From NCBI GenBank assembly GCA_965218205.1, contig OZ244590.1, forward strand, positions 915,271 through 979,270: a DNA stretch of 64,000 nucleotides. Reading direction: 5' to 3'. A model generated the notes under the pieces. The model was not told the origin of the DNA. It ran no database searches and saw nothing but the letters and a program-made list of their open reading frames with translations. Shown piece by piece: positions 23,761 through 48,636 of this stretch (its first letter is position 1; every line of letters starts with the position of its first letter). The position numbers and the translations under genes were made by a program. This DNA is from Spirochaetia bacterium (GTDB lineage: Bacteria > Spirochaetota > Spirochaetia > WTKD01 > G963693115).

Positions 23761-23769
23761 GATAGAAAT

Positions 23770-24546: not shown

Positions 24547-24551
24547 AAGGT

Positions 24552-26778: not shown

Positions 26779-27280
26779 TGTTATGTCATGGTTGAGCATC
26801 TTTGTTATTATTTGTTTTTCAATTCTCATTAATATTGTAATATCATCATTTTTGATAGCACGATCCCATCATTCAAAAAAAATAGTATCGGAGGTGGAAC
26901 AAACATTATCAGATCTCATTAAGAATATTAATCAAGCTACATACGAACAAATAACCCTCGCAGAAGAGAGTATAAAAAAACTGCGTCATGAAAATAAACA
27001 AGGAAAAGAAGTACATGCAAAACTTGCATTTTTAAGTGAAGAGAAATATCAAGTATTATTACATGTTCTCAAAACTATTGAAAGAAAAAAAGCACACACT
27101 GTAATCACTCCTACTGGTAATAATGGTATGTCTAAAGAGAGGATGATAATAGCGAAAAAAAAATCGCAGCAAGCATCTTTGCGTACACAGAATACACAAA
27201 AAAACCATGATAATCAAACATTGCAAGACATTAATTATAGCTCATTATCATGTGATGAAATTGATTTACTCAAGCTATAG
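26753..27280 (+). CDS. hypothetical membrane-anchored coiled-coil protein
   Basis: 175 aa from GTG 26753. ATG 26783 is an equally plausible start (MSWLSIFVIICFSILINIV...). One N-terminal TM. The 3' end overlaps the convergent methyltransferase gene by 11 nt. Confidence 0.4.
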   Translation: MLLWILRVSVMSWLSIFVIICFSILINIVISSFLIARSHHSKKIVSEVEQTLSDLIKNINQATYEQITLAEESIKKLRHENKQGKEVHAKLAFLSEEKYQVLLHVLKTIERKKAHTVITPTGNNGMSKERMIIAKKKSQQASLRTQNTQKNHDNQTLQDINYSSLSCDEIDLLKL

Positions 27281-28883
27281 AGTATGATCTGAAAGTTCCA
27301 TTTTCTGTTTCCTCTATCCCTAAATAGTTATATAATACTTCTTTGTTAAAAATAGTTTCTTTATGTAACACTTCATGATATATTGGTAAATATTCTAAAT
27401 TTTTTCGCAGTACTTTGTTAGTCTTAAATAATGATGAATATAGCCAGTTCATAAAATCAGAACTCAAATAATCTGCTAAAATTGAGTGTTTGATTGGAAC
27501 ATACATGTTAGGAATTACTAAATTTGCACTATTTAATAAAAAATGTCCTTGTGTATCATGTGCAAAAATTAATTTTGATGAAATAAAACGATATACCAAT
27601 TTACTGTTAGCGGTATACAAGTTTCTGTCTGCCACTTGTTGATATAATGATACATTCTTAGGGATAAATAATTTTGGATCTTCAATGCATTTATTATGAA
27701 TATCTTTGCCACATAAAATTGGCATATATCCCTCTTTTTCTTTTTTACTAAAAAATTTGGAATTATTACCAGTTACTATCCCTAAACCCCAACGAGCATT
27801 ATTAGCTAATGTTATATGCTTGAAGGATAATAAATATTCAATGGTATTTTGTTCCTCTTGTGTTACATCAATATTGAAAATATGTTCCCAATTTCTTTTA
27901 AATGAATGTTGTAGTCGAGTATGAGAGATTGTATCATTATATTTTGAACAACAAACTATATTATTTGATGTGCTTTTTTTATTTTTTAGAAATAGTCCAA
28001 CAGAAGAAGCCATCAATCCTTTAAACGGTTTTTTATAATCTACTAAACTAAGTATTTCTTTCTCTACTATTTTTGTTCTAATGTCAGCAAAAGCACTCAC
28101 AGAAAAACAAGAATCTGGTAATAGTAACCCAATAAAGCCATTTTCTTTGGTGCATAAAATAGACAATGCTATAAAAAAAGCCGAGCTATCCATACTTTTA
28201 CCTGTTTGAAAAGTACGAGAAAAATTATATTTTATATTTTTTGAATATTTTTTTCCCCATGGTGGATTGGTCATTATCACATTGTATGTTTCAGTTTTTC
28301 CTAGATAATACTGCTCTAAAGTATCAATATGTTTTAAGTGTGCATAACGTCCTGTGCGTTCAAAGATACGTTTTTTTGCTATGTTCAGAGCTGTTTTGTC
28401 GGTATCAAAACCATAAATATTTTCAGGTTCAAACCCAGCTTCAATAGCCCCTAATAAAAAATTTCCTGTGCCACAACAAGGATCACAAAAAGTCATACTA
28501 TCATTAATATCATCTGTTATTTTTTCAAAAAAGTCCTTAATGATATTCTCGGGAGTGTAAAATATTCCTTCTTTATTTCGATAAGAGTTTGATAATCCCT
28601 TTTCATATAGAGAACTTAGTTGCTCAGTTGCGTATTTTTTTTCTGCAATACTCTTAATTAATTCATCATGATTATGTGTATCTAATAGTAATTTATTGGC
28701 ACGAGAATGTAATTTTTCTTTGCCTAAGATATTATTTTGAAAATGAGAAAAGGATGTATAACTTACCAAACCTTTTCCTGTAGAGTGTAAATATCCACAT
28801 TTTACCCAATTTCTGACAGTTGCTAAGGAAACACTAAATTTCTCTGTAATCCAATCATAAGAGACATGCTCAGTATGTATCAT
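27270..28883 (-). CDS. HTH-fused N6-adenine DNA methyltransferase (gamma class, Eco57I/TaqI-like with TaqI-type C-terminal specificity domain); no nuclease partner
   Basis: 537 aa. N-terminal excisionase/MerR-type HTH (FSVSLATVRNWVKCGYL), SAM motif I DPCCGTGNFLLGA, catalytic motif IV TNPPWG and a TaqI_C-like GIVTGNNSKFF. Confidence 0.85.
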   Translation of the reverse strand: MIHTEHVSYDWITEKFSVSLATVRNWVKCGYLHSTGKGLVSYTSFSHFQNNILGKEKLHSRANKLLLDTHNHDELIKSIAEKKYATEQLSSLYEKGLSNSYRNKEGIFYTPENIIKDFFEKITDDINDSMTFCDPCCGTGNFLLGAIEAGFEPENIYGFDTDKTALNIAKKRIFERTGRYAHLKHIDTLEQYYLGKTETYNVIMTNPPWGKKYSKNIKYNFSRTFQTGKSMDSSAFFIALSILCTKENGFIGLLLPDSCFSVSAFADIRTKIVEKEILSLVDYKKPFKGLMASSVGLFLKNKKSTSNNIVCCSKYNDTISHTRLQHSFKRNWEHIFNIDVTQEEQNTIEYLLSFKHITLANNARWGLGIVTGNNSKFFSKKEKEGYMPILCGKDIHNKCIEDPKLFIPKNVSLYQQVADRNLYTANSKLVYRFISSKLIFAHDTQGHFLLNSANLVIPNMYVPIKHSILADYLSSDFMNWLYSSLFKTNKVLRKNLEYLPIYHEVLHKETIFNKEVLYNYLGIEETENGTFRSYSIA

Positions 28884-29084
28884 TGTATTCCTTTTCCATT
28901 TTTTTAGTATATCTAATTTGAGAGTTTTTATTTTGATATGAGATGCTCTTGCTTTTTTGTTGCTCTATCTTTTAGAATAGCTTTTTTTCTTTTATCTGAT
29001 ATTTTATCGGATCAAATATTTTACTTAAGCAGTGCTTAAAATTGAGAATAAAAGGCTATTTTTTAAAAAATAGACATTTTACTA

Positions 29085-29113
29085 TTGCATTTTTTTTTTT
29101 TTCATTGTATGAT
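29085..29113 (+). promoter_or_regulatory. predicted sigma-70 promoter of lipoprotein paralog 1: TTGCAT-17 nt-TATGAT, spacer mostly a T13 tract (29090-29102)
   Basis: The hexamers and 17-nt spacing were read directly. The promoter is about 50 nt upstream of SD AAAGGAG and ATG 29166. Confidence 0.55.
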
Positions 29114-29165
29114 ATAGTCATATTTGTAAAAAATTCAAGTGTTAATCTTGAAAAAGGAGCGAAAT

Positions 29166-31955
29166 ATGAAAAAAAATCATACATGGTTCATTATTTATAT
29201 TATTTTTAGTATTTTTGTTATTTTGATAAGTGCTTGTGAAGCTAATACTTCAACTAGCTCTGTAGCGGGGGATGATGTACTACCCTCTGCGGATGCCTTT
29301 GTAGAAGTAAAAAATATTATTAGTAATACTACCGACAGAAGTATTATATTGAAATGGACAGCTCCGACGCTTAGCGCTAGCCATAAAAAGAAAGACGGCA
29401 CAGCACTTACAAAGGCAGATATATCCTACAAAGTATATCGGGTAGAAAAGGGAGCAAGGAGCAGAATAATAGCGAATATTATGGCTTTAGATAAGTCACC
29501 CATACAAGTAAAAAAAGGAATAATAACCACGAATATCAATAATCTTAAGCCTACTACCACTTATGAAGTAGTAGTACAAGCAGTCAATTCTACTGACCCT
29601 ACAAAAGCCTCTACAGGAATAAAGATAGAAGTAACGACCCTTGCAACTAATCACGCAACAGCACCAGCAGAAGCAAGTAATGTTACGGGAAATCCAACCG
29701 ATATAAGTGCAAGTATATCATGGCAAGCTCCAACGCTTAACACTAGCCATAAAAAGAAAGACGGCACAGCACTCACAAAGGCAGATATATCCTACAAAGT
29801 ATATCGGGTAGAAAAAGGAAGCGATGCCCGAACAGTAGCAGAGATTAAGACAGCAGATAATAAAGCGATAACAGTAAAAGGAACAACAAGAATAAGTATA
29901 ACTAATCTTACACATACTACCACCTATGAAATAGTAGTACAAGCAGTCAATTCTACTGATACTACAAAAGCCTCTAACGGCATACGAATAGAAGTAACTA
30001 CTCTTGCTACTAATCAAGCAACAGCACCAGCAGACGCAAGCAATGTTAGAGGAAGCTCAGCCGATGACAGTGTAGAGGTATCATGGCAAGCCCCAACGCT
30101 TGATACTAGCCACAAGAAAGCAGATGGAGGAAGGCTTACCAGTGCAGATATATCGTACAAAGTATATCGGGTAGCAAAGGGAGACAATGCCCGCACAATA
30201 GCAGAGATTAAAACAGCAGACACGAACCCGCTAGCAGTAGCAAAGGGAACAACAAGAACAACTATAAGTAACCTTGCAGGTAGTACAACATATGAGATAG
30301 TAATACAATCAGTCAATGCAACCGATACTACAAAAGTCTCTACAGGAATAAGAAAAGAAGTAACTACCCTTGCCACTATTAGCATGAGAGCAAAGGAGCA
30401 AGGAAAGAGTACTACAGTTTCTACTCTATCAGCAACCGCACAAGGAAAAGACGGAACAACAGAAATTACTCCTATTGTAATGGAAGTAACGCCCAGTAGT
30501 GTAGTAAGCGGAGGTACATTTTCAATCAGCCCCAACCTTACAGAAAATACAGGCATTTCATTTAATACCAGCAACGGCACAATATCAGGGGTAGCGAAGT
30601 ATATACAGGATGAAACTAATTATACAATAACATTTACAACACAAGACGGCAGAACAGTACAGACCTCTATTGATGTTACTATAGTGGGGAAGCATAGTCC
30701 AAAAAATCAATACGAGCTAGTTAAATTAATAAATGGAATAATGGACACCGATAAAGACGGAGAGGCAGACGATAAAATTGACCCCGACTTAAACATTATT
30801 GATACAAGTAATATTACAGATATGGGGAATCTGTTTTCTGAAAGCACAAAATTACACCGTTTCAATGGAGATATATCAAAATGGAATGTAAGCAATGTAA
30901 CGGATATGCAACTAATGTTTCACGGAGCAACCGCCTTTAATGGAGATATATCAAATTGGAATGTAGGCAAAGTCAGAACTATGAAAGCAATGTTTTATAA
31001 AGCAACCGCCTTTAATAGTGATATATCAAACTGGAATGTAAGCAGTGTAACGGATATGTACGGAATGTTTAGAGAAGCAACCGCCTTTAATAAAGATATA
31101 TCAAACTGGAATGTAAGCAGTGTAACGGATATGTACGGAATGTTTAGCGGAGCAACCGCCTTTAATAGTGATATATCAAACTGGAAAGTAGGGAAAGTTA
31201 CTACTATGGAGTCTATGTTTCAAGGAGCAACCGCCTTTAATAGTGATATATCAAACTGGAATGTAGGCAAAGTAAAAACCATGAAAGGAATGTTTGCAGG
31301 AGCAACCTCGTTTAATAGAGGTATATCAAACTGGAATGTAAGCAGTGTAACGGATATGAGCGGAATGTTTACAGGAGCAACCGCATTTAATGGGGATATA
31401 TCAAACTGGAAAGTAGGTAATGTAACGGATATGAACAATATGTTTCACGGAGCAACCGCATTTAATGGGGATATATCAAACTGGAAAGTAGGCAACGTAA
31501 CGGATATGCACCGTATGTTTAGAGAAGCAACCGCCTTTAATAAAGATATTTCAAACTGGAATGTAGGCAGTGTAACGGATATGAACCGTATGTTTACAAG
31601 AGCAGCCGCCTTTAATAAAAATATTTCAAACTGGAATGTAAGTAACGTAACGGATATGAGTTATATGTTTAGCAGAGCAACCGCCTTTAATAGTGATATA
31701 TCAAACTGGAATGTAGGGGAAGTTACAAATATGTACGGAATGTTTAGCTATGCGACCGCCTTTAATAGTGATATATCAAACTGGAATGTAGGGAAAGTAA
31801 CGGATATGAGTTTTATGTTTTTGTATGCTCCTGCCTTTAAGAGAAATTTAGATAAATGGGGTAGCCATATAGGAGGTAGAACAGTGAAAAAGACCAACAT
31901 GTTTGCAAGAAGTGGAGTAACGACACCGCCCTCATGGTACTCAAGTAAAAAGTAA
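29166..31955 (+). CDS. surface lipoprotein paralog 1: 3 FN3-like units + Ig-like unit + 13 DUF285-type repeats
   Basis: 929 aa from the SD-supported ATG 29166 (AAAGGAG-6 nt-ATG). Lipobox ...FVILISAC. Repeats are SW(T/Q)AP...SHKK..G...SYKVYRV...TYE.VV and FN.DISNW.V..VTDM..MF. Confidence 0.85.
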   Translation: MKKNHTWFIIYIIFSIFVILISACEANTSTSSVAGDDVLPSADAFVEVKNIISNTTDRSIILKWTAPTLSASHKKKDGTALTKADISYKVYRVEKGARSRIIANIMALDKSPIQVKKGIITTNINNLKPTTTYEVVVQAVNSTDPTKASTGIKIEVTTLATNHATAPAEASNVTGNPTDISASISWQAPTLNTSHKKKDGTALTKADISYKVYRVEKGSDARTVAEIKTADNKAITVKGTTRISITNLTHTTTYEIVVQAVNSTDTTKASNGIRIEVTTLATNQATAPADASNVRGSSADDSVEVSWQAPTLDTSHKKADGGRLTSADISYKVYRVAKGDNARTIAEIKTADTNPLAVAKGTTRTTISNLAGSTTYEIVIQSVNATDTTKVSTGIRKEVTTLATISMRAKEQGKSTTVSTLSATAQGKDGTTEITPIVMEVTPSSVVSGGTFSISPNLTENTGISFNTSNGTISGVAKYIQDETNYTITFTTQDGRTVQTSIDVTIVGKHSPKNQYELVKLINGIMDTDKDGEADDKIDPDLNIIDTSNITDMGNLFSESTKLHRFNGDISKWNVSNVTDMQLMFHGATAFNGDISNWNVGKVRTMKAMFYKATAFNSDISNWNVSSVTDMYGMFREATAFNKDISNWNVSSVTDMYGMFSGATAFNSDISNWKVGKVTTMESMFQGATAFNSDISNWNVGKVKTMKGMFAGATSFNRGISNWNVSSVTDMSGMFTGATAFNGDISNWKVGNVTDMNNMFHGATAFNGDISNWKVGNVTDMHRMFREATAFNKDISNWNVGSVTDMNRMFTRAAAFNKNISNWNVSNVTDMSYMFSRATAFNSDISNWNVGEVTNMYGMFSYATAFNSDISNWNVGKVTDMSFMFLYAPAFKRNLDKWGSHIGGRTVKKTNMFARSGVTTPPSWYSSKK
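30860..31860 (+). repeat. array of about 13 tandem 75-nt (25-aa) DUF285-type coding repeats (approximate bounds)
   Basis: FN(G/S/K)DISNW(N/K)V(S/G).VTDM..MF recurs with a 25-aa period. Confidence 0.8.
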
Positions 31956-32173
31956 GGAATAGTAAACTTGTGTAGGGATGAGAAATATAAAATCTTTCAT
32001 AGTATCAATGTAAGATGTTTATTATTCTTATTCTTTTAATCATCCCTACACTTTAGTAAGTTTATATAAGACAGGAAAACTGTTATTACTATTATAAATT
32101 GAGTATATTTGAGAAAGGAGTTTTGCTATCTCATGTATGGATTTTTGGAGGCACGCAAGATGGTAAAAGTACA
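31956..32173 (+). repeat. 218-nt post-gene module, copy 1 (near-identical to 44485-44702)
   Basis: Aligned by eye with only a handful of substitutions. Contains the 12-bp inverted repeat 31970-31981 / 32040-32051. Confidence 0.85.
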
Positions 32174-32279
32174 TGGCTTTGAACATTGCGACCAGTAAAC
32201 CTCCATTCAAATATTTTACTTAAGCAGTGCTTAAAATTGAGAATAAAAGGCTATTTTTTAAAAAATAGACGTTTTACTA

Positions 32280-32308
32280 TTGCATTTTTTTTTTTTTCAT
32301 TGTATAAT
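32280..32308 (+). promoter_or_regulatory. predicted sigma-70 promoter of lipoprotein paralog 2: TTGCAT-17 nt-TATAAT with T13 tract (32285-32297) in the spacer
   Basis: Same module as 29085-29113 at a constant offset of 3195 nt. The -10 hexamer is a perfect TATAAT. Confidence 0.55.
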
Positions 32309-32360
32309 ATAGTCATATTTGTAAAAAATTCAAGTGTTAATCTTGAAAAAGGAGCGAAAT

Positions 32361-35300
32361 ATGAAAAAAAATCATACATGGTTCATTATTTATATTATTT
32401 TTAGTATTTTTGTTATTTTGATAAGTGCTTGTGAAGCTAATACTTCAACTAGCTCTGTAGCGGGGGATGATGTACTACCCTCTGCGGATGCCTTTGTAGA
32501 AGTAAAAAATATTATTAGTAATACTACCGACAGAAGTATTATATTGAAATGGACAGCTCCGACGCTTAGCGCTAGCCATAAAAAGAAAGATGGCACATCA
32601 CTCACAAAGGCAGATATATCCTACAAAGTATATCGGGTAGAAAAGGGAGCAAAGAGCAGAATAATAGCGAATATTATGGCTTTAGATAAGTCACCCATAC
32701 AAGTAAAAAAAGGAATAATAACCACGAATATCAATAATCTTAAGCCTACTACCACTTATGAAGTAGTAGTACAAGCAGTCAATTCTACTGACCCTACAAA
32801 AGCCTCTACAGGAATAAAGATAGAAGTAACGACCCTTGCAACTAATCACGCAACAGCACCAGCAGAAGCAAGTAATGTTACAGGAAATCCAACCGATATA
32901 AGTGCAAGTATATCATGGCAAGCTCCAACGCTTAACACTAGCCATAAAAAGAAAGACGGCACAGCACTCACGAAGGCAGAGGTATCTTACAAAGTATACC
33001 GAGTAGCAAAGGGAAGCGATGCCCGAACAGTAGCAGAGATTAAAGAAGCAGATACGAACCCGCAGGAAGTAGCAAAAGGAACAACAAGTATAACTATAAA
33101 TAGTCTTACTCCTACTGCTACCTATGAAGTAGTAGTACAAGCAGTCAATTCTACTGATACTACAAAAGTCTCTACAGGAATAAAGATAGAAGTAACGACC
33201 CTTGCAACTAATCAAGCAACCGCACCCGCAGACGCAAGCAATGTTAGAGGAAGCTCATCCGATGACAGTGTAGAGGTATCATGGCAAGCCCCAACGCTTG
33301 ATACTAGCCACAAGAAAGCAAACGGAGAAACACTCACAACAGCAGATGTATCGTACAAAGTGTATCGTGTTGCAAAGGGAGACAGCCCTCGCACAATAGC
33401 AGAGATTAAAACAGCAGACTCAAGCCCGCTAGAAGTAACAAAGAATACCACAAGCAAGACTATAACTAACCTTACAGGCAGTACTACATACGAGATAGTA
33501 ATAGTAGCGGTAAATAGTACTGATACAACAAAAGTCTCTACAGGAGTGAGAGCAGAAGTGACTACCACGAACCCCGCAAATGCCCCTGCAGAAGTAAGCA
33601 GTGTTACCGCAGGCAGTACAACGGCTAGCAGTACAACACTATCGTGGACAGCCCCAACGCTTGATACTAGCCACAAGAAAGCAGATGGAGGAAGGCTTAC
33701 CAGTGCAGATATATCGTACAAAGTGTATAGAGTAGCAAAAGGAGACAGCCCCCGAACAATAGCAGAAATTAAAACAGCAGACTCAAACCCGCTAGAAGTA
33801 GCAAAGAATACCACAAGAAAAACGATAATTAACCTTACAGGCAGTACAACATATGAGATAGTAATAGTAGCGGTAAATAGTACTGATACCACAAAAGTCT
33901 CTATAGGAGTGAAAAAAGAAGTAACTACTTCAAACCCAGCGAATGCCCCCACAGAAGTAAGCAATATTACCGCAAGCAATACAACGGCTAGCAGTACAAC
34001 GCTATCGTGGACAGCCCCAGCCCTTACTAATAATCACAAGAAAGCAAACGGAAAAAGACTCACAACGGCAGATGTGTCTTACAAAGTATACCGAGTAGCA
34101 AAGGGAAGCGATGAGCGAACAATAGCCCAGATTAAAACAGCAGACCCGACTCCGCTAGCAGTAGCAAAGGGAACGACAAGAACAACTATAACAAAACTTA
34201 ATTATAATACCGCCTATGAGATAGTAATAGTAGCGGTAAATAGTACTGATACAACAAAAGAGTCCACAGGAGTGAAAAAAGAAGTAACTACTAATTATAT
34301 ACCTAATATAGCCACCGCCCCAACAGACGTAAGCAATATTACCGCAGGAAGCACTACCGCCTCAAGTACAACACTATCGTGGACAGCCCCAACGCTTGAT
34401 AATAGTCACAAGAAAGCAGATGGAGGAAGGCTTACCAGTGCAGATGTATCGTATAAAGTGTATCGGGTAGCAAAAGGAGACAGCCCTCGCACAATAGCCC
34501 AGATAAAATCAGCAGACACAAGCCCGTTAGAAGTAGCAAAGAATACCACAAGAAAAACGATAACTAACCTTACAGGCAGTACAACATACGAGATAGTAAT
34601 AGTAGCGGTAAATTCCACCGATACCACAAAAGTCTCTACAGGCATACGAAAAGAAGTGACTACTGTAAACCCCGCAAATGCCCCCACAGAAGTAAGTACT
34701 ATTGTAGCAGGTAGTACAACCGACTCAAGTACAACGCTATCGTGGACAGCCCCCGCCCTTACTAATAATCACAAGAAGGCAAACGGGCAAAGACTTACAA
34801 CGGCAGATGTATCTTACAAAGTATATCGAGTAGCAAAAGGAAGCGATGAGCGAACAGTAGCCCAGATTAAAACAGCAGACACGACACCGCTAGAAGTAGC
34901 AAAGAATACCACAAGAAAAACGATAACTAACCTTACAGGCAGTACGACATACGAGATAGTAATAGTAGCGGTAAATAGTACTGATACCACAAAAGTCTCT
35001 ACAGGAGTGAGAGCAGAAGTGACTACCACGAACCCCGCAAATGCCCCTGCAGAAGTAAGCAATATTGTAGCAGGCAGTACAACGGCTAGCAGTACAACAC
35101 TATCGTGGACAGCCCCCGCCCTTACTACTAGCCACAAGAAAGCAGATGGGGGAAGACTTACCAGTGCAGATGTATCGTATAAAGTCTATAGGGTAGCAAA
35201 GGGAAGCGATGAGCGAACAATAGCCCAGATAAAATCAGCGGACACGACTCCGTTAGAAGTAGCAAAGAATACCACAAGAAAAACGATAAGTAGTCTAACA

Positions 35301-38255: not shown

Positions 38256-38286
38256 CATTACAATGTATTGTGTATAATATAACATA

Positions 38287-38365
38287 GTGTAGGGATGGTA
38301 GAATTTTTATATTTATCTCCATGTGGATACTGATATTAAGTATAGCTTTTTTATCATCCCTGCAC
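38287..38365. repeat. inverted-repeat module after paralog 2 (arms GTGTAGGGATG / CATCCCTGCAC, 57-nt loop)
   Basis: The arms match those at 31970/32040 and 44499/44569, with one A-to-G change that keeps G-U pairing. The loop sequence is unrelated but has the same length class. Confidence 0.6.
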
Positions 38366-38399
38366 TATAGAAAAGAATAATTTTTGAAGGGAGACAGTT

Positions 38400-40928
38400 A
38401 TGAAATTATTAAAAGTATCATATATAGTTTTTATCGTTCTTGTGTTTACATTATTCACTTGTGAAGACATCAAAGTAGGAAGTAGCAATGTTAGTAACCC
38501 CGCCACCGCACCGCCAGAGGCAAGCACTGTTACAGGAAGCCCCACCGATGAAAGTGTAAGGGTATCGTGGACAGCCCCAGCCCTTACTACTAGTCACAAG
38601 AAAGCAGACGGACAAGCACTCACAACGGCAGATATATCGTACAAAGTGTATCGTGTAGCAAAGGGAAGCAAAGCCCGATATATAGGAGAAATTAAAAAAG
38701 CAGACCCGAACCCGCTAGCAGTAGCAAAGGGAACAACAAGTATACGTATAACTAATCTTAAGCCTACTACTACCTATGAAGTAGTAGTACAAGCAATCAA
38801 TGCCACCGACCCCACAAAAATCTCTATAGGAATAAGAGCAGAAGTAACTACCCTTGCTACTAATCACGCAAATGCCCCAACAGAAGTAAGCAATATCACC
38901 GCAGGCAGTACCACCGCTAGCAGTACAACGCTATCGTGGACAGCCCCAGCCCTTACTACTAATCACAAGAAAGCAGACGGACAAGCACTCACAACGGCAG
39001 ATATATCGTACAAAGTGTATCGTGTAGCAAAAGGAGACAATGAGCGAAGTGTAGCAGAAATTAAAACAGCAGACACGACCCCGCTTGAAGTAACAAAGGG
39101 AACAACAAGCAAAACGATAAGTAGTCTAACAGGCAGTACAACATATGAGATAGTAATAGTAGCAGTCAATTCTACCGATACGACAAAAGCCTCTACAGGC
39201 GTACGAATAGAAGTAACTACCCTTGCAAATAATCAAGCAACAGCACCGCCAGACGCCCGTATTGTTACAGGAAGGCCAGCCGATGACAGTGCATTAATAA
39301 GATGGCTACCCCCAAAATTTACAAGCGATCATAAGAAAGCAGATGGAACACAACTAACAAAGGCAGATATATCGTACAAAGTGTATCGTGTTGCAAAGGG
39401 AAGCGATGATCGAACAATAACACAGATTAAAACAGCGGATACGACCCCGCTTGAAGTAGCAAAAGGAACAACAAGAATAAATATAACTAATCTTAAGCCT
39501 ACTACCACCTATGAAATAGTAGTACAAGCAGTCAATTCTACCGATACCACAAAAGTCTCTACAGGTGTACGAATAGAAGTAACTACCACGAACCCCGCCA
39601 CCGCACCCGCAGAAGTAAGCACTGTTACAGGAAGCCCTACCGATGAGAGTGTAAGGGTATCGTGGATAGCCCCAGCCCTTACTACTAGTCACAGGAAAGC
39701 AAACGGACAAGCACTCACAACGGCAGATGTGTCCTATAAAATATATCGTGTTGCAAAGGGAAGCGATGAGCGAACAATAACACAGATTAAAACAGCAGAC
39801 ACGACACCGCTTGAAGTAGCAAAGGGAACAACAAGCAAAACGATAAGTAGTCTAACAGGCAGTACAACATATGAGATAGTAATAGTAGCAGTCAATTCCA
39901 CCGATACCACAAAAGTCTCTACAGGAGTAAGAGCAGAAGTGACTACCCTTGCCACTATTAGCATGAGAGCAAAGCAACAAGGAAGCAGTACTACAGTTAC
40001 TACTTTGTCAGCAACAGCACAAGGAAAAGACGGAACGACAGAAATTACTCCTATTGTTATTGAAGTAACGCCCAATAGTGTAGTAAGCGGGGGTACATTT
40101 TCAATAAGCCCGAACCTAACAGAAAATACAGGCATTTCTTTCAATACCAGAAACGGCACATTATCAGGGGTAACAAAATACGCCCAGAGTGAAACTACTT
40201 ATACAATAACCTTTACAGCAACAGACGGCAGAACAGCACGGACTACTATTGATATTACTGTAGTGCATAAATATAGTCCGAAAAATAGAGCCGATTTAAT
40301 TACATTGATACAGGATATAATGGACACCGATGACAACGGGAAAATAGATGATATTGACCCCGACTTAAACATTATTGATACAAGTAATATTACAGATATG
40401 ACCCAATTATTTAGCACGAGAACAAAATTACATGTATTTAATGGGGATATATCAAAGTGGAATGTAAGTAATGTAACTACTATGTTTGCAATGTTTGCCA
40501 GTAATACCGCTTTTAATGGGGATATATCAGACTGGAATGTAGGCAAAGTAACGGATATGGACGGAATGTTTAGCAGAGCCTCTGCATTTAATGGGGATAT
40601 ATCAAACTGGAATGTAAGCAAAGTAATAGTTATGGACAGGATGTTTTTGAATGCAACCGCATTTAATAGGGATATATCAGACTGGAATGTAAGCAAAGTA
40701 ACGGATATGAGTTGGATGTTTAATAACGCCTCTGCATTTAATAAGGATATATCAGACTGGAATGTAGAAAGTGTGACCAATATGTTTGCCATGTTTAATA
40801 ATGCAACTGCATTTAATAAAGATTTAGAAGCATGGGGGGAACATATAGGGAAAAATGTAGTTATGTCCTTCATGTTTGATGATAGTGCAGTAACTACACC
40901 GCCTACATGGTACAGAAGTACAGAGTAA
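38400..40928 (+). CDS. surface lipoprotein paralog 3: 4 FN3-like units + Ig-like unit + about 5 DUF285-type repeats
   Basis: 842 aa. SD GAAGGGAG upstream. A distinct signal peptide MKLLKVSYIVFIVLVFTLFTC (lipobox). The downstream modules are the same as in paralogs 1 and 4. Confidence 0.85.
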   Translation: MKLLKVSYIVFIVLVFTLFTCEDIKVGSSNVSNPATAPPEASTVTGSPTDESVRVSWTAPALTTSHKKADGQALTTADISYKVYRVAKGSKARYIGEIKKADPNPLAVAKGTTSIRITNLKPTTTYEVVVQAINATDPTKISIGIRAEVTTLATNHANAPTEVSNITAGSTTASSTTLSWTAPALTTNHKKADGQALTTADISYKVYRVAKGDNERSVAEIKTADTTPLEVTKGTTSKTISSLTGSTTYEIVIVAVNSTDTTKASTGVRIEVTTLANNQATAPPDARIVTGRPADDSALIRWLPPKFTSDHKKADGTQLTKADISYKVYRVAKGSDDRTITQIKTADTTPLEVAKGTTRINITNLKPTTTYEIVVQAVNSTDTTKVSTGVRIEVTTTNPATAPAEVSTVTGSPTDESVRVSWIAPALTTSHRKANGQALTTADVSYKIYRVAKGSDERTITQIKTADTTPLEVAKGTTSKTISSLTGSTTYEIVIVAVNSTDTTKVSTGVRAEVTTLATISMRAKQQGSSTTVTTLSATAQGKDGTTEITPIVIEVTPNSVVSGGTFSISPNLTENTGISFNTRNGTLSGVTKYAQSETTYTITFTATDGRTARTTIDITVVHKYSPKNRADLITLIQDIMDTDDNGKIDDIDPDLNIIDTSNITDMTQLFSTRTKLHVFNGDISKWNVSNVTTMFAMFASNTAFNGDISDWNVGKVTDMDGMFSRASAFNGDISNWNVSKVIVMDRMFLNATAFNRDISDWNVSKVTDMSWMFNNASAFNKDISDWNVESVTNMFAMFNNATAFNKDLEAWGEHIGKNVVMSFMFDDSAVTTPPTWYRSTE

Positions 40929-41016
40929 AGAATAGTAACATTGTGTAGGGATGAGAAATATAAAATCTTTAGCAGTGCTTAAAATTGAGAATAAAGGCTA
41001 TTTTTTAAAAAAATAA

Positions 41017-41035
41017 GTTTTTTTTTATTGTATAA
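41017..41035 (+). promoter_or_regulatory. degenerate copy of the paralog promoter module: T9 tract (41017-41025) and TATAAT (41030-41035); the TTGCAT -35 element is deleted
   Basis: Alignment with 32260-32310 shows loss of the segment carrying TTGCAT and a shorter T run. Confidence 0.45.
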
Positions 41036-41088
41036 TATAGCTATATTTATGAAAAATTCAAGTGTTAATCTTGAAAAAGGAGCGATAT

Positions 41089-44000
41089 ATGAAAAAAAAT
41101 CATATATGGTTTGTTGCTGTATGTATTTTTGTTATTTTTATAAGTGCTTGTGAAGCTAATACTTCAAATAGCTCTAGTAGTGAGGATGATGTACTGTCTT
41201 CTGCAACGGCTCCTGCAGACGCAAGTAATGTTATAGGAAGCCCCACCGATACAAGTGCAAGAATATCGTGGACAGCCCCAATGCTTACAAGCAGTCACAA
41301 GAAAGCAGATGGAACAAAACTAACAACAGCAGATGTATCGTACAAAGTATATCGTGTAGTAAAGGGAGCAAAGAGCCGAACAATAGCAGAGATTAAAACA
41401 GCAGATACGACACCGCTAGCAGTAGCAAAAGGAACAACAAGCACAAATATAACTAATCTTACGAGAAGTACCACATATGAGATAGTAATAGTAGCAGTCA
41501 ATGCCGCCGCCCCTACAAAAGCCTCTACAGGCATACGAATAGAAGTAACGACCCTTGCAACTAATCAGGCAACAGCTCCCGCAGACGCAAGTAATGTTAC
41601 AGGAAGCCCCACCGATACAAGTGCAAGAATATCGTGGACAGCCCCAGCACTTACTACTAGTCACAAGAAAGCAAACGGACAAGCACTCACAACGGCAGAT
41701 GTATCGTACAAAGTATATCATGTAGCAAAAGGAAGCGATGAGCGAACAATAGAACAGATTAAAACAGCAGACACGACACCGCTAGCAGTAGCAAAAGGAA
41801 CAACAAGCACAAATATAACTAATCTTACGAGAAGTACCACATATGAGATAGTAATAGTAGCAGTCAATGCCACCGATACCACAAAAGTCTCTACAGGAGT
41901 AAGAATAGAAATAACTACCCTTGCAAATAGTCACGCAACCGCACCGCCAGATACCCCCGTCTATGTTGCGGGAGGAAGTATTACCGATACCAGTATAAGA
42001 ATAATATGGCAAGCCCCCACGCTTGATAATAGTCACAGGAAAGCAAACGGCAAAGCACTCACAACGGCAGAGGTATCTTACAAAGTATATCATGTAGCAA
42101 AAGGAAGCAATGAGCGAACAATAGAACAGATTAAAACAGCAGACACGACACCGCTAGAAGTAGCCTCAATAGCAGTAGCAAAGAGAACAATAAGAGCAAG
42201 TATAAATAATCTTACGAGAAGTACCACCTATGAAATAGTAGTACAAGCAGTCAATGCCACCGATACTACAAAAGTCTCTACAGGCATACGAGTAGAAGCC
42301 TCCACTCTTGCAAATAATAACGCAACTGCACCGCCAGATGCCCGAAGTGTTACGGCAGGCAGTACCACCGCTAGCAATACAATAATTTCATGGCAAGCCC
42401 CTACACTTGATACTAGTTACAAGAAAGCAAACGGACAAGTACTCACAAAGGAATATATATACTACAAAGTATATAGAGCAGTAAAAGGAAGCGATGACCG
42501 AACCATAGCCCAGATTAAAGAAGCAGACACGACACCGCTTGAAGTAGCCCCGCTTGAAGTAGCAAATGGAACAATAAGCAAAAGTATAAATAATCTTACT
42601 GGAAATACCACCTATGAAATAGTAGTACAAGCAGTCAATGTCACCGACCCTACAAAAGCCTCTACAGGCATACGAATAGAAGTAGCTACCACAAACCCCG
42701 CCACTGCACCGCCAGAGGTAAGCAGTATTACAGGCAGCCCAACCGATATAAGTGCAAGGGTATCATGGACAGCCCCAATGCTTACTAATGATCACAAGAA
42801 AGCGAACGGAGGAAGACTCACAACGGCAGAGGTATCTTACAAAGTATATCATGTAGCAAAGGGAAGCGATGAGCGAACAATAGCTCAGATTAAAGAAGCA
42901 GACACGACCCCGATAGAAGTAGCAAAAGGAACAACAAGCACAAATATAACTAATCTTACACCTAATACCACCTATGAAATAGTAGTACAAGCAGTCAATG
43001 CCACCGACCCCACAAAAGCCTCTACAGGCATACGAATAGAAGGCCCCACGCTTGCAAATAATCAAGCCACTGCACCAACAGAGCCCCGTGTTGTTACAGG
43101 AAGATCGACCGATGACAGTGCATTAATAAGATGGCTACCCTCAAGGCTTACTAATAATCACAAGAAAGCAAACGGACAAGCACTCACAAAGGCAGATGTA
43201 TCTTACAAAGTGTATCGTGTAGTAAAAGGAAGCGATGAGAGAACAACAGCCCAGATTAAAGAAGCTGACACGACACCGCTTGAAGTAGCAAAAGGAACAA
43301 CAAGGATAACTATACATAATCTTACTGGAAGTACTACCTATGAAATAGTAGTACAAGCAGTCAATGCCACCGATACCACAAAAGTCTCTACAGGCATACG
43401 AATAGAAGTAACTACCCTTGCCACTATTAGCATGAAAGCAAAGCAACAAGGAAGCAGTACTACATTTACTACTTTATTTACAACAGCACAAGGAAAAAAT
43501 GGCACAACTACCATTACTCCTATTGTAATGGAAGTCACGCCCAGTGATGTAGTAAGCGAGGGTACATTTTCAATAAGCCCGAACCTAACGGAAAATACAG
43601 GCATTTCTTTCAATACCAGCAATGGCACAATATCAGGGATAGCGAAATATATACAGAGTGAAACTACTTATACAATAACCTTTACAGCAACAGACAGCAG
43701 AACAGTACAGACTACTATTGATATTATTGTAGTAGGTAAATATATCCCTAAAAATAGAACCGAGTTAATTAGAACGATTAAAACAATAATCGACACGAAT
43801 AAAGACGGCACTATTGACAACAAGGATGACCTAGACGCAGACTTAAACAATATCGATACAAGTAGTATTACTAGTATGCGGTACTTGTTTGCAAAATCCA
43901 TAACAAAGTTACACCAATTTAGTGGGGATATATCAAAATGGGATGTAAGTAATGTAACTGATATGTACGGGATGTTCCAAGACGCTACTGCATTTAATAG

Positions 44001-44484
44001 TGATATATCAAAATGGGATGTAAGCAAAGTAACAAGTATGAGCTGGATGTTTAGAGGAGCGACTGCATTTAATAGCGATATATCAGACTGGCACGTAAGC
44101 AAAGTAACCGATATGCTCGCAATGTTTGGGAAAGCTACCGCCTTTAATAGTGATATATCAGACTGGAAAGTAGGGAAAGTTACCGATATGAGCGGGATGT
44201 TTGAAGGAGCAACTGCCTTTAATAGTGATATATCAGACTGGAAAGTAGGGAAAGTTACCAATATGAGTTTTATGTTTGAAGGAGCAATTGCATTTAATAG
44301 TGATATATCTACATGGGATGTAAGCAAAGTAACGAATATGAGCGATATGTTCAAGGAGGCAAGTAGTTTTAATAGAGATTTAGAAGCATGGGGGGAACAT
44401 ATCGGGGAAAGTGTTACTATGGACGGAATGTTTGAAAACTCTAAAGTAACTACACCGCCTACATGGTATAAAAGCACAGAGTAA
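41089..44484 (+). CDS. surface lipoprotein paralog 4: 6 FN3-like units + Ig-like unit + about 6 DUF285-type repeats
   Basis: 1131 aa from the SD-supported ATG 41089. Lipobox ...FVIFISAC. The repeat motifs are as in the other paralogs. Confidence 0.85.
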   Translation: MKKNHIWFVAVCIFVIFISACEANTSNSSSSEDDVLSSATAPADASNVIGSPTDTSARISWTAPMLTSSHKKADGTKLTTADVSYKVYRVVKGAKSRTIAEIKTADTTPLAVAKGTTSTNITNLTRSTTYEIVIVAVNAAAPTKASTGIRIEVTTLATNQATAPADASNVTGSPTDTSARISWTAPALTTSHKKANGQALTTADVSYKVYHVAKGSDERTIEQIKTADTTPLAVAKGTTSTNITNLTRSTTYEIVIVAVNATDTTKVSTGVRIEITTLANSHATAPPDTPVYVAGGSITDTSIRIIWQAPTLDNSHRKANGKALTTAEVSYKVYHVAKGSNERTIEQIKTADTTPLEVASIAVAKRTIRASINNLTRSTTYEIVVQAVNATDTTKVSTGIRVEASTLANNNATAPPDARSVTAGSTTASNTIISWQAPTLDTSYKKANGQVLTKEYIYYKVYRAVKGSDDRTIAQIKEADTTPLEVAPLEVANGTISKSINNLTGNTTYEIVVQAVNVTDPTKASTGIRIEVATTNPATAPPEVSSITGSPTDISARVSWTAPMLTNDHKKANGGRLTTAEVSYKVYHVAKGSDERTIAQIKEADTTPIEVAKGTTSTNITNLTPNTTYEIVVQAVNATDPTKASTGIRIEGPTLANNQATAPTEPRVVTGRSTDDSALIRWLPSRLTNNHKKANGQALTKADVSYKVYRVVKGSDERTTAQIKEADTTPLEVAKGTTRITIHNLTGSTTYEIVVQAVNATDTTKVSTGIRIEVTTLATISMKAKQQGSSTTFTTLFTTAQGKNGTTTITPIVMEVTPSDVVSEGTFSISPNLTENTGISFNTSNGTISGIAKYIQSETTYTITFTATDSRTVQTTIDIIVVGKYIPKNRTELIRTIKTIIDTNKDGTIDNKDDLDADLNNIDTSSITSMRYLFAKSITKLHQFSGDISKWDVSNVTDMYGMFQDATAFNSDISKWDVSKVTSMSWMFRGATAFNSDISDWHVSKVTDMLAMFGKATAFNSDISDWKVGKVTDMSGMFEGATAFNSDISDWKVGKVTNMSFMFEGAIAFNSDISTWDVSKVTNMSDMFKEASSFNRDLEAWGEHIGESVTMDGMFENSKVTTPPTWYKSTE

Positions 44485-44702
44485 AGAATAGTAACATTGT
44501 GTAGGGATGAGAAATATAAAATCTTTCATAGTATCAATGTAATATGTTTATTATTCTTATTCTTTCAATCATCCCTACACTTTAGTAAGTTTATATAAGA
44601 CAGGAAAACTGTTATTACTATTATAAATTGAGTATATTTGAGAAAGGAGTTTTGCTATCTCATGTATGGATTTTTGGAGGCACACAAGATGGTAAAAGTA
44701 CA
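44485..44702 (+). repeat. 218-nt post-gene module, copy 2 (near-identical to 31956-32173)
   Basis: Contains the inverted repeat 44499-44510 / 44569-44580 with a 58-nt loop. It lies between the convergent paralog 4 and PBP genes. Confidence 0.85.
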
Positions 44703-44722
44703 GGTAACTTCAAAGAGCTATG

Positions 44723-46561: not shown

Positions 46562-46660
46562 CTCCTTAAAATATCGACAATAGTAAAACAGTACTCAATA
46601 ATTATATTGATTGTGTCGAAAATATCGGTAGTATACAATAAAAAAAGAATAAAAATAATT

Positions 46661-47878: not shown

Positions 47879-47964
47879 TTGCACCATAGTGCTTGCTATA
47901 GTATAACTACTATAGTGTAATTATAGTTACGTTGTTATTCTCTTCTATTTCAACAATATCTCGT

Positions 47965-48591: not shown

Positions 48592-48636
48592 TTATTCACA
48601 TTATATGGTAAAACAACGGGAAGGGTATATAATAAA

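What the first reader, a model, noticed from the sequence alone, without database searches (positions are those of the whole stretch)
29012..44702. Four tandem paralogs of a modular FN3 / Ig-like / DUF285 lipoprotein family that share exact nucleotide cassettes (candidate variable surface-protein locus)
Seen: four co-directional genes (29166-31955, 32361-38255, 38400-40928, 41089-44484) each open with a lipoprotein signal ending in a lipobox Cys (..ILISAC, ..IFISAC, ..TLFTC). They then carry 3, 15, 4 and 6 copies of a ~121-aa FN3-like unit (SW(T/Q)AP.L..SHKKA(D/N)G...SYKVYRV.KG...TYE(I/V)V(I/V).AVN.TD). Paralogs 1, 3 and 4 add one Ig-like unit (FSISPNLTENTGISFNT.NGT.SG) and about 13, 5 and 6 copies of a 25-aa FN.DIS.W.V..VT.M..MF unit. 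Paralogs 1 and 2 are near-identical over about 770 nt at a constant offset of 3195 nt (29012-29780 vs 32207-32975). That stretch covers the promoter, signal peptide and first FN3 units, after which the two diverge. A 74-nt run is identical between paralog 1 (30090-30163) and an internal unit of paralog 2 (33651-33724). Established: the 25-aa unit matches the DUF285 (PF03382) repeat first described in Mycoplasma lipoproteins, and FN3 arrays commonly form adhesin stalks. Inference: different unit counts plus patchy identity point to unequal crossing-over and gene conversion. This would be a contingency locus for surface variation, wedged between core flagellar and cell-wall genes.
Basis: partly seen in the sequence, partly recalled or inferred. 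Interest (0 to 1): 0.7.

Follow-up and report, generated by a model that had tools for sequence, protein, structure and literature searches.

The report
Strain-specific island of modular surface lipoproteins
Four neighbouring genes in an uncultured spirochaete encode lipoproteins built from a fibronectin-like stalk of varying length and a repeat-built head. They form a 15.7-kb insertion that the closest known relative lacks, which makes this a recombining accessory surface-protein family rather than a proven switching locus.

Summary
Four co-directional genes encode a lipobox signal peptide followed by 3, 15, 4 and 6 FN3 units of about 121 aa. Paralogs 1, 3 and 4 end in DUF285/PARCEL arrays of 25-aa repeats.

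New findings:
- The whole block (28945-44709) is absent from a Spirochaetia MAG whose flanks are about 95% identical. It is also absent from two more distant relatives, so it is a derived, strain-specific insertion.
- It has no mobility gene and no tRNA at its ends.
- It belongs to a family of at least 19 members called on the same 2.36-Mb contig.
- Class-A genes share a conserved 5' module in which a T-tract fills the gap between a -35-like and a -10-like element. The two T13 tracts are the longest homopolymers in the window.
- FN3 units are mosaic (permutation test z about 17) but old and under purifying selection (dS about 0.63, dN/dS about 0.41).

Verdict: this is an evolutionarily plastic family of adhesin-like lipoproteins shaped by duplication and gene conversion. 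T-tract promoter switching of the Vlp type is plausible but untested. Cassette-type programmed variation is not supported. It is a new member of a known kind, of moderate interest.

The parts
28945..44709 (.). 15.7-kb island holding all four lipoprotein genes. It is absent from the closest relative, L001.
   Evidence: In L001 (reverse-complemented), positions 1-9970 match window 18983-28944 at 95.8%, and 9984-19706 match window 44710-54451 at 94.7%. Only 13 nt lie between the two matches. Outgroups L009 and L010 have fapA, two small ORFs and the PBP gene with no island.
29012..29165 (+). Class-A 5' module, copy 1. It holds a perfect 18-nt palindrome CTATTTTTTAAAAAATAG (29056-29073), a -35-like TTGCAT (29085-29090), a T13 tract (29090-29102), a -10-like TATGAT (29108-29113) and an AAGGAG ribosome-binding site (about 29154).
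   Evidence: The spacing between the two hexamers is 17 nt.
29166..31955 (+). Paralog 1 (929 aa). Signal peptide with lipobox 29166-29237; 3 FN3 units 29295-30386; He_PIG about 30429-30683; PARCEL/DUF285 array 30861-31910 (13-14 repeats).
31956..32206 (+). 3' module, copy 1, with a long hairpin (31970-32051; 12-bp arms GTGTAGGGATGA / TCATCCCTACAC). It is homologous to 44485-44709.
   Evidence: (fold z = -4.1).
32207..32360 (+). Class-A 5' module, copy 2. T13 tract 32285-32297; -10-like TATAAT 32303-32308.
32361..38255 (+). Paralog 2 (1964 aa). The signal peptide is identical to P1's. 15 FN3 units 32490-37970; C-terminal He_PIG about 38049-38231; no DUF285 head.
38287..38365 (+). Diverged copy of the 3' hairpin, between P2 and P3.
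   Evidence: (fold z = -5.3).
38400..40928 (+). Paralog 3 (842 aa). Class-B signal peptide 38400-38462; 4 FN3 units 38508-39965; He_PIG about 40005-40262; PARCEL array 40437-40886 (5-6 repeats).
40929..41088 (+). P3-P4 junction. It holds only the left hairpin arm (40943-40953), fused to a class-A 5' module that has lost its -35 region. T9 tract 41018-41026; TATAAT retained.
41089..44484 (+). Paralog 4 (1131 aa). Signal peptide 41089-41151; 6 FN3 units 41209-43434; He_PIG about 43483-43719; PARCEL array 43918-44442 (6-7 repeats).
44485..44709 (+). 3' module, copy 2, with the hairpin at 44499-44580. Its end coincides with the right edge of the island.
40199..40873 (-). Antisense open frame (224 aa) across the P3 PARCEL array. 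It encodes its own 25-aa amphipathic repeat. A 269-aa counterpart lies at 43668-44477 over the P4 array.
   Evidence: This matches the dyad symmetry described for PARCEL coding DNA (PMC2996958).

Best explanation
The block is a recently gained, strain-specific accessory island. It holds four members of a large, lineage-restricted multigene family of modular lipoproteins in an uncultured Spirochaetia bacterium.

Architecture. Each protein has a lipoprotein signal peptide and a Ser/Thr-rich tether. Next comes a stalk of 3 to 15 FN3 domains, each about 121 aa and carrying one inserted helix. An He_PIG Ig-like domain follows. P1, P3 and P4 end in a head made of 25-residue DUF285/PARCEL repeats (named 'BspA family' by NCBI), which is predicted with high confidence to be a regular repeat fold. 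P2 has the stalk but no head.

Inferred function. These are cell-envelope, probably surface-exposed, ligand-binding or adhesin-like proteins. The stalk length would set how far the head projects.

Shown by sequence comparison. The family diversifies on an evolutionary time scale in four ways. Whole [5' module - gene - 3' hairpin] units are duplicated. FN3 units expand within arrays. Patchy gene conversion occurs between units and between genes, including recent homogenisation of the promoter, signal peptide and first unit of P1 and P2. Heads are re-assorted onto different stalks and signal peptides.

Inferred expression control. Class-A genes each appear to have their own sigma-70-type promoter, in which a T-tract forms most of the spacer. 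With T13 the spacing is the optimal 17 nt. Slipped-strand changes in tract length would therefore tune or switch individual genes, as in the Mycoplasma hyorhinis Vlp system. P4 has lost its -35 element and the terminator hairpin upstream of it, so it is probably co-transcribed with P3.
For: Domains:
- Pfam fn3 and DUF285 hits and NCBIfam PARCEL hits.
- He_PIG scores above the Pfam cut-off in all four proteins.
- The FN3 unit model has pLDDT 94, and Foldseek matches many solved FN3 domains at probability 1.0.
- The head model has pLDDT above 90 over the repeat region.

Island status:
- The block is absent from L001, whose flanks are 95.8% and 94.7% identical.
- It is absent from L009 (PBP 81% identical) and L010 (PBP 64% identical), where fapA, two small ORFs and the PBP gene are contiguous. 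By parsimony the insertion is derived.

Family:
- Besides the four genes here, at least 15 further members are called on the same 2,360,799-bp contig.
- Tandem clusters of two or more family genes lie between housekeeping genes in a related metagenome assembly. Other members there sit singly or away from such clusters.
- The full-length 121-aa unit is rare.
- DUF285 heads, by contrast, are widespread (2636 hits).

Recombination:
- Sawyer-type permutation test: SSCF z = 16.7 and 18.5, with 0 of 500 permutations reaching the observed value.
- P1u3 is 97-100% identical to P2u3 for about 80 nt. It is then 100% identical to P2u4 for 75 nt.
- dS between P1 and P2 rises from 0.024 to 0.22 to 0.40 across units 1 to 3.
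- The P3-type head is 84% identical in P0009, which has 2 FN3 units and a class-A signal peptide. It is 81% identical in the two-headed P0005.

Promoter:
- The two T13 tracts are the longest homopolymers in the 64-kb window. A Markov estimate expects 0.011 T runs of that length.
- The 5' module recurs in L006 and L007. The hexamer spacing is 17 nt in four copies. It is 19 nt in a T15 copy and 15 nt in a T8 copy. Most of the spacing difference comes from T-run length, though the spacer flanks also differ between copies.

Literature: Vlp phase variation works through a promoter poly(A) tract, and Vlp size variation through in-frame repeats (PMC10502178). PARCEL lipoproteins, their dyad symmetry and intragenomic shuffling are described in PMC2996958.
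Against: - There are no expression, lipidation or localisation data. In a diderm spirochaete a lipoprotein can be periplasmic.
- The -35 element is weak (TTGCAT, 3 of 6 matches to consensus), and the promoter scan did not call it.
- P1 and P2 carry the same T13, so there is no ON/OFF contrast within this genome.
- The tract lengths in L006 and L007 come from an assembly at about 8.8x coverage that I take to be long-read from its contig names. Homopolymer lengths there may be errors, and one L006 copy shows a broken signal-peptide frame.
- Only one close comparator genome exists. The island's absence there could be a deletion or a population-consensus effect.
- FN3 units are old and under purifying selection (dS 0.63, dN/dS 0.41). 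Size variation by slippage should therefore be slow.
- The best Foldseek match for the head is an LRR protein, but it is not significant (E=0.29). No PDB sequence homolog exists. A ligand-binding role is therefore inferred only from family context.
Confidence: 0.6

Rival explanations
1. This is a true contingency locus. Frequent unequal crossing-over and cassette-like gene conversion among the four genes would change unit number and composition within a clonal population, giving antigenic or size variation on the time scale of an infection or bloom.
For: FN3 units are mosaic. Exact shared runs of 40-100 nt, and 202 nt for P1u1/P2u1, exceed the minimal length usually needed for RecA-dependent exchange (that threshold is from established knowledge). 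A 15-nt in-frame duplication, PLEVAPLEVA, sits in P4u4. The 5' 840 nt were homogenised recently.
Against: Repeat units are only 73% identical on average, and adjacent units are 55-88% identical. Median dS is 0.63 and dN/dS is 0.41, with no pair above 1. All four genes are complete, each with its own signal peptide, so there are no silent cassettes and no single expression site. No recombinase or invertase is present. No within-population data exist.
Confidence: 0.15
2. This is a static accessory family with no programmed switching. The T-tract would be a structural promoter element (a rigid, AT-rich spacer or UP-like tract). All variation would be ordinary slow evolution of a gene family.
For: P1 and P2 have identical T13 tracts. 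One copy in L006 has an interrupted tract but keeps the 17-nt spacing, which suggests that spacing rather than mutability is what is conserved. From my own knowledge, not checked here: T-rich promoter regions are a known feature of Borrelia outer-surface lipoprotein genes.
Against: Two copies in related loci have 19-nt and 15-nt spacing, and most of that difference comes from T-run length. Runs of 13 or more are among the most slippage-prone sequences known (established knowledge). They are strongly over-represented here (expected 0.011, observed 2).
Confidence: 0.3
3. The island was acquired horizontally as, or on, a mobile element from another organism.
For: The block is an indel relative to close relatives. 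Its G+C is higher than the flanks (38-45% against about 33%). PARCEL ORFs are associated with mobile elements in some taxa (PMC2996958).
Against: There is no integrase, transposase or relaxase, and no flanking direct repeats. No tRNA lies at the ends, since the only tRNA is at 56709-56783. The G+C excess sits at codon position 2 (0.45-0.52 against about 0.24-0.40 in eight flanking genes), which reflects a Thr/Ala/Ser-rich composition. GC3 is only modestly raised (0.30 against 0.19-0.36). The same FN3 subtype, signal peptides and 5'/3' modules occur in many other genes of the same genome and lineage. This points to an intragenomic source.
Confidence: 0.08
4. The block is an assembly artefact, in which repeats were mis-joined or duplicated by the assembler.
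For: The region is highly repetitive. P1 and P2 share about 840 nt at 99% identity.
Against: All four ORFs are intact over 2.5-5.9 kb. Units differ enough (73% mean identity) to be placed uniquely. Comparable tandem clusters occur in an independent assembly. The P1/P2 copies differ at 8 positions and then diverge progressively.
Confidence: 0.03

Closest known systems
PARCEL / DUF285 (PF03382, TIGR02167) surface lipoproteins of Mollicutes, which NCBI names 'BspA family leucine-rich repeat surface protein'
   Same: Both have tandem 25-residue FN.DIS.W.V..VT.M..MF repeats in variable number at the C-terminus of lipoproteins. Both form multigene families with different repeat counts per paralog. 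The coding DNA has dyad symmetry, here seen as antisense open frames of 224 and 269 aa. Both show signs of intragenomic shuffling.
   Different: The host is an uncultured diderm spirochaete. The PARCEL head sits on a long FN3 stalk plus an He_PIG domain. No mobile-element association was found. One paralog (P2) has the stalk only.
Vlp system of Mycoplasma hyorhinis, and the related Vmm and Vmc systems
   Same: Both have several tandem lipoprotein genes with a highly conserved 5' region covering promoter, leader and signal peptide. Both have a homopolymer (or dinucleotide) tract placed in the promoter. Both have in-frame repeats that differ in number between genes (PMC10502178).
   Different: Switching has not been shown here. 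The repeats are 363-nt folded FN3 domains at 73% identity, not short near-identical periodic units. The tract is poly(T) on the coding strand. Only class-A genes carry the module.
Bacterial FN3/Ig-stalk adhesins in general (a long stalk carrying a distal binding domain)
   Same: An array of beta-sandwich domains acts as a spacer between the membrane anchor and a terminal binding module. FN3 fold: pLDDT 94, Foldseek probability 1.0.
   Different: The anchor is an N-terminal lipid rather than sortase/LPXTG, an autotransporter or a T1SS retention module. The unit is a lineage-restricted 121-aa FN3 variant with an inserted helix.
Treponema pallidum tpr genes, which have homopolymeric G tracts upstream (from my own knowledge, not checked here)
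   Same: Both are spirochaete multigene families of envelope proteins with a homopolymer near the promoter, where tract length is proposed to modulate transcription.
   Different: The protein family is unrelated, the tract is poly(G), and the organism is a host-restricted pathogen.

Membership tests
DUF285 / PARCEL repeat proteins (PF03382, TIGR02167) | Tandem 25-residue repeats that match the family HMMs above their cut-offs | tested here: met
   PF03382 scores 473.7, 193 and 235 bits against a cut-off of 25 for P1, P3 and P4. TIGR02167 matches 13, 5 and 6 stretches. P2 has no hit and is not a member.
DUF285 / PARCEL repeat proteins (PF03382, TIGR02167) | Dyad symmetry of the coding DNA, so that the antisense strand also encodes a periodic amphipathic repeat | tested here: met
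   Antisense ORFs of 224 aa (P3) and 269 aa (P4) encode 25-aa repeats of the form SDISLLNA..NI..ISVTLLTFQ. For P1 no antisense ORF of at least 80 aa was listed over the array.
DUF285 / PARCEL repeat proteins (PF03382, TIGR02167) | Association with mobile elements (reported only for some taxa; not obligatory) | tested here: not met
   No mobility gene lies in or next to the island and no tRNA lies at its ends.
Fibronectin type III domain | Match to PF00041 above the cut-off and a seven-strand beta-sandwich fold | tested here: met
   PF00041 scores 51 to 244 bits against a cut-off of 25. The AlphaFold2 model has pLDDT 94.2. Foldseek gives probability 1.0, E about 1e-5 and TM 0.6-0.8 to EphA8, contactin, DCC and fibronectin FN3 domains.
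He_PIG putative Ig domain (PF05345) | HMM match above the gathering score | tested here: met
   Scores are 26.7 (P1), 27.0 (P2), 26.5 (P3) and 26.5 (P4) bits against a cut-off of 24. This is a marginal pass. The structure model of this part had low confidence.
Bacterial lipoproteins (Lgt/LspA substrates) | A basic N-terminal region, a hydrophobic region and a lipobox ending in Cys | tested here: met
   The lipoboxes are ..LISAC..FISAC and ..LFTC at residues 21-24, read directly from the sequence. LFTC is not canonical for E. coli but is acceptable for spirochaetes (my own knowledge). No dedicated predictor was available.
Bacterial lipoproteins (Lgt/LspA substrates) | Actual lipidation and membrane or surface localisation | not testable with these tools
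   This needs Triton X-114 partitioning, palmitate labelling or globomycin treatment, and protease shaving.
SSR-switched variable lipoprotein families (Vlp type) | A conserved 5' cassette (promoter, leader, signal peptide) shared by several tandem genes | tested here: met
   P1 and P2 are 99% identical over 29012 to about 29850. The module is also present upstream of P4 and of four genes in L006 and L007.
SSR-switched variable lipoprotein families (Vlp type) | A homopolymer located between the -35 and -10 elements, with length that differs between ON and OFF states | tested here: inconclusive
   The position requirement is met: TTGCAT, 17 nt that include the T13 tract, then TATAAT. Spacings of 17, 19 and 15 nt occur among copies, mostly through T-run length. 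However, the promoter is only inferred, no clonal ON/OFF comparison exists, and the related assemblies are low-coverage and apparently long-read.
SSR-switched variable lipoprotein families (Vlp type) | Near-identical short in-frame repeats that give high-frequency size variation | tested here: not met
   The units are 363 nt long, with 73% mean identity and a median dS of 0.63.
Cassette-recombination antigenic variation (vlsE or vmp type) | Promoterless silent cassettes together with a single expression site | tested here: not met
   All four genes are full-length, each with its own start codon, ribosome-binding site and signal peptide.
BspA / LRR_5 leucine-rich repeat proteins (Tannerella BspA, Treponema LrrA) | A match to LRR-family HMMs, or an LRR fold | tested here: inconclusive
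   No LRR Pfam family appears among the hits. The best structural match is the Nogo receptor LRR, at E=0.29, probability 0.80 and TM 0.26. The 'BspA family' label is NCBI's name for DUF285 proteins.

The most novel reading that the evidence does not exclude
An uncultured spirochaete lineage runs a Vlp-like combinatorial surface system. Dozens of modular lipoprotein genes would each be switched on or off independently by slippage of a promoter-spacer T-tract. Stalk length (3 to 15 FN3 domains) and head type would be re-assorted by recombination. A population would then display a shifting mixture of adhesin heads at different heights above the outer membrane, with long headless stalks such as P2 acting as shields. 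This would be convergent with the mycoplasma systems and would be built around a head fold (DUF285) that has no solved structure.
Probability: 0.25. Interest if true: 0.6.

Novelty: new member of a known kind. Interest (0 to 1): 0.42.

Why it matters
DUF285/PARCEL proteins are abundant in many microbes, yet none has a solved structure or a defined ligand. Here they appear in a new setting, on FN3 stalks in a spirochaete, within a family large enough to take up a visible share of a 2.36-Mb genome. The family differs between genomes that are about 95% identical. If the T-tract promoter does switch, this would be an independent, non-mycoplasma example of homopolymer-driven combinatorial lipoprotein expression. 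It would also give a tractable way to study how stalk length and head identity shape surface interactions. If it does not switch, the locus is still a clean example of concerted evolution and module shuffling in a surface-protein family, and a warning for pangenome analyses that such islands come and go between near-identical strains.

Tried and rejected
- Exact-protein look-ups of P3 and P0001 found no contig on record.
- A metagenome scan for the class-A 5' module with a variable T gap returned 9 loci. None has a T-tract or any homology to the module, so all are chance matches.
- A search for a donor locus of the island among the fetched loci (L001, L005-L010) found nothing above about 88% identity outside the flanks.
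- The class-B upstream region (P3) was aligned with two other class-B genes and is not conserved. The T-tract module is therefore specific to class A.
- Foldseek of the head against the PDB gave no significant hit. phmmer against PDB sequences gave none.
- The He_PIG part of the head model has low confidence because the alignment lacked it.
- Rfam and tRNA scans found nothing in or at the edges of the island.
- Literature searches for the assembly accessions, and for FN3 plus DUF285 lipoproteins in Spirochaetia, found no description.
- The paper by Wise et al. 2006 on the Vmc system (PMC1483001) is not held.
- Blanket diversifying selection on FN3 units is rejected, because dN/dS is below 1 for all 378 pairs.
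- Foreign origin inferred from G+C is rejected, because the excess lies at codon position 2.

Full report
OBSERVATION. The four ORFs are at the stated places. Their translations show lipoprotein-type signal peptides ending in ..LISAC (P1 and P2, which are identical)..LFTC (P3) and ..FISAC (P4). A motif scan gives 3, 15, 4 and 6 FN3-like units with a period of 120-128 aa. Pfam finds fn3 in all four proteins. It finds DUF285 in P1, P3 and P4 at E=1.5e-144, 1.4e-57 and 1.2e-70, and not in P2. NCBIfam's PARCEL repeat model TIGR02167 matches 13, 5 and 6 stretches.

The claimed nucleotide identities hold. 29012-29780 and 32207-32975 match at 761 of 769 positions, and the 74-nt run is exact.
- P2 also ends in an Ig-like He_PIG domain. 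All four proteins pass the Pfam cut-off, narrowly (26.5-27 bits against 24).
- P1/P2 homology extends to 30368 at 92.6% over 1360 nt.
- A DNA methyltransferase gene separates the flagellar operon from the block.

ANATOMY. Each class-A gene (P1, P2, P4) is preceded by a conserved 5' module. In order, it contains:
- a perfect 18-nt palindrome, CTATTTTTTAAAAAATAG;
- a -35-like element, TATTGCA;
- a T-tract;
- TTGTATAAT (TATGAT in P1);
- an AAGGAG ribosome-binding site and the signal peptide.

With T13, the distance between TTGCAT and TATAAT is 17 nt. The two T13 tracts are the longest homopolymers in the 64-kb window. A Markov estimate expects 0.011 T runs of that length.

The genes with PARCEL heads are followed by a 3' module. 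It contains a hairpin with 12-bp arms (GTGTAGGGATGA...TCATCCCTACAC) whose fold z-scores range from -2.2 to -4.1. A diverged copy of the hairpin follows P2 (z = -5.3). The same hairpin follows family members in other loci (L005, L006).

The P3-P4 junction is a deletion joint. Only the left hairpin arm remains, and it is fused to a 5' module that has lost its -35 region and carries T9. P4 is therefore probably co-transcribed with P3; this is an inference. P3 has a different (class-B) signal peptide, and its upstream region is not conserved with other class-B genes.

CONTEXT AND COMPARATIVE GENOMICS. Upstream lie flhA, flhF, a MinD/FlhG-like gene, fliA and fapA. Downstream lie a class-B PBP, an M23/LysM peptidase, RNase HII and SMC.

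A scan of species-representative genomes found one close relative, the Spirochaetia MAG contig CBDDCA010000002.1 (L001). Its flanks align at 95.8% and 94.7% nucleotide identity, but window 28945-44709 is replaced there by 13 nt. Two more distant relatives were also examined, with PBPs 81% and 64% identical (L009, and L010 from GCA_014845345.1). In both, fapA, two small ORFs and the PBP gene are contiguous. They have neither the methyltransferase nor the lipoprotein block.

By parsimony, the block is a derived insertion in the window's lineage. The island ends coincide with the start of a 5' module and the end of a 3' module. There is no integrase or transposase, no flanking direct repeat and no tRNA at the ends. 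The raised G+C of the block lies mainly at codon position 2, reflecting its Thr/Ala/Ser-rich composition. GC3 is only slightly raised. An intragenomic origin from a paralogous locus is the most economical reading, although no donor was found among the loci I could fetch.

THE FAMILY. Besides the four genes here, homology searches found at least 15 further members on the same 2,360,799-bp contig. They also found tandem clusters of two or more family genes between housekeeping genes in a related assembly, with other members placed singly (sample ERZ25073769). There are three signal-peptide classes.

A profile of the 121-aa unit was searched against 1.84 billion cluster representatives. Weaker hits match only the generic FN3 core. 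The PARCEL head is the opposite case. It gives 2636 hits across Mollicutes, Bacteroidota, algae and other groups, mostly unnamed or labelled 'BspA family leucine-rich repeat surface protein'.

Modules re-assort. The P3-type head is 84% identical in P0009, which has a class-A signal peptide and 2 FN3 units. It is 81% identical in the second head of the two-headed P0005.

EVOLUTIONARY DYNAMICS. The 28 units average 73% nucleotide identity. The nearest neighbours of most P2 units are other P2 units (up to 89%), and those of most P4 units are other P4 units. This is the signature of within-array expansion and homogenisation.

A Sawyer-type permutation of polymorphic sites gives SSCF z = 16.7 for all units and 18.5 without P1. 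None of 500 permutations reached the observed value.

P1u3 is an explicit mosaic. It is 97-100% identical to P2u3 for about 80 nt. It is then 100% identical to P2u4 for 75 nt, in columns where units average 76.6% identity. Synonymous divergence between P1 and P2 rises from 0.024 in unit 1 to 0.22 in unit 2 and 0.40 in unit 3. This indicates a recent conversion tract of about 840 nt laid over an older duplication.

The units are nonetheless old and constrained. Median dS is 0.63, median dN/dS is 0.41, and no pair has dN/dS above 1. This argues against near-identical hypermutable repeats and against blanket diversifying selection.

STRUCTURE. The FN3 unit model (pLDDT 94.2) is a beta-sandwich with one inserted helix. 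It matches many solved FN3 domains at Foldseek probability 1.0.

The head model has pLDDT above 90 across the PARCEL region, with one short bridge every 25 residues. It has no significant structural match; the best is the Nogo receptor LRR at E=0.29. It also has no PDB sequence homolog. The antisense strand of the P3 and P4 arrays is open for 224 and 269 aa and encodes its own 25-aa repeat. This is the dyad symmetry that gave PARCELs their name (PMC2996958).

MECHANISM. The following are shown:
- the domain architecture;
- island status relative to three other genomes;
- family size;
- the recombination signatures;
- the promoter-like geometry.

The following are inferred:
- The proteins are envelope, probably surface, binding proteins whose stalk length sets the reach of the head.
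- Class-A genes have individual promoters whose strength depends on T-tract length.

Across seven copies of the module, the spacing is 17 nt in four. It is 19 nt in a T15 copy and 15 nt in a T8 copy. P4 lacks the -35 element. This is what an SSR switch would produce. However, the non-window copies come from an assembly at about 8.8x coverage that I take to be long-read from its contig names. Homopolymer lengths are unreliable in such assemblies, and one copy there has a broken signal-peptide frame. I put promoter switching at about 0.35, the adhesin-like surface role at about 0.5, and the evolutionary account at 0.8 or higher.

COMPARISON WITH KNOWN SYSTEMS. The closest family is the PARCEL/DUF285 lipoproteins of Mollicutes (PMC2996958). 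P1, P3 and P4 meet its defining features.

In how it may work, the locus most resembles the Vlp system of M. hyorhinis. That system has tandem lipoprotein genes, a conserved 5' region, a promoter homopolymer and in-frame repeats (PMC10502178). The resemblance fails on one defining feature, short near-identical repeats, and the switching feature is untested. It is not a cassette system of the vlsE or vmp type, because it has no silent cassettes. A literature search found no description of FN3 plus DUF285 lipoprotein families in Spirochaetia.

VERDICT. The block is a new member of a known kind: a PARCEL surface-lipoprotein multigene family, here with a lineage-specific FN3 stalk. It is notable for being a clean strain-specific insertion and for a candidate T-tract promoter switch. 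Interest is moderate.

Noticed in passing
window 27270-28883 (- strand): This N6-adenine DNA methyltransferase gene (N6_Mtase plus TaqI_C domains) is itself an insertion. It is present in L001 but absent from outgroups L009 and L010, where fapA, two small ORFs and the PBP gene are contiguous. The fapA-PBP gap therefore looks like a repeated insertion site.
   Followed up: partly
window 54349-58720, with tRNA-Asn at 56709-56783: Homology to L001 drops from about 95% to patchy 82-88% after about 54451. This second variable region holds a KAP-family P-loop NTPase, an EcoRI-like adenine methylase and a GmrSD-N nuclease-like ORF next to the only tRNA. It is probably a defence island.
   Followed up: no
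window 51883-53274 and 53355-54368: A 463-aa ORF has no Pfam hit and lies in a stretch of locally raised G+C (0.415). It is followed by a weak patatin-like ORF (22.5 bits, below the cut-off).
   Followed up: no
window 29056-29073 and 32251-32268; degenerate copy at about 40998: A perfect 18-nt palindrome, CTATTTTTTAAAAAATAG, lies about 12 nt upstream of the -35-like element. It is conserved in the L006 and L007 copies of the module. It could be an operator for a dimeric regulator or an UP-like element.
   Followed up: partly
window 32102-32200 and 44631-44709: A short conserved stretch in the 3' module has an AAGGAG motif followed by ATGTATGGATTTTTGGAGGCAC.. (MYGFLEA.KMVKV..). It is open for 21 aa after P1 and for 36 aa after P4, where it runs into the PBP gene's 3' end on the other strand. 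It may be a mini-ORF or just conserved non-coding sequence.
   Followed up: no
window 42331-42705 (P4 unit 4) and 41947-42330 (P4 unit 3): There are in-frame micro-duplications inside FN3 units: PLEVAPLEVA (a 15-nt tandem duplication) and an inserted SIAVA. These are small slippage events in the loop that follows the inserted helix.
   Followed up: no
L007 about 2680-2700, upstream of the gene at 2796: A T16 tract lies about 100 nt upstream of a different DUF285 family gene that has another signal-peptide type. Homopolymers near promoters may be a wider habit of this family.
   Followed up: no
L006 2333-2606 and 9074-9640: Family members here look degraded. One class-A 5' module is followed by a signal-peptide frame with no lipobox, which is either a frameshift or a long-read homopolymer error. 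There is also a 188-aa FN3 fragment gene.
   Followed up: no
window 63972-63979: A C8 homopolymer is the only G/C run of 7 or more in the window.
   Followed up: no
L005 10001-13474 (P0005): This family member has two heads: FN3 x2, He_PIG, PARCEL, then He_PIG, FN3, He_PIG, PARCEL. It looks like a fusion of two genes of the kind that sit in tandem in the window.
   Followed up: partly
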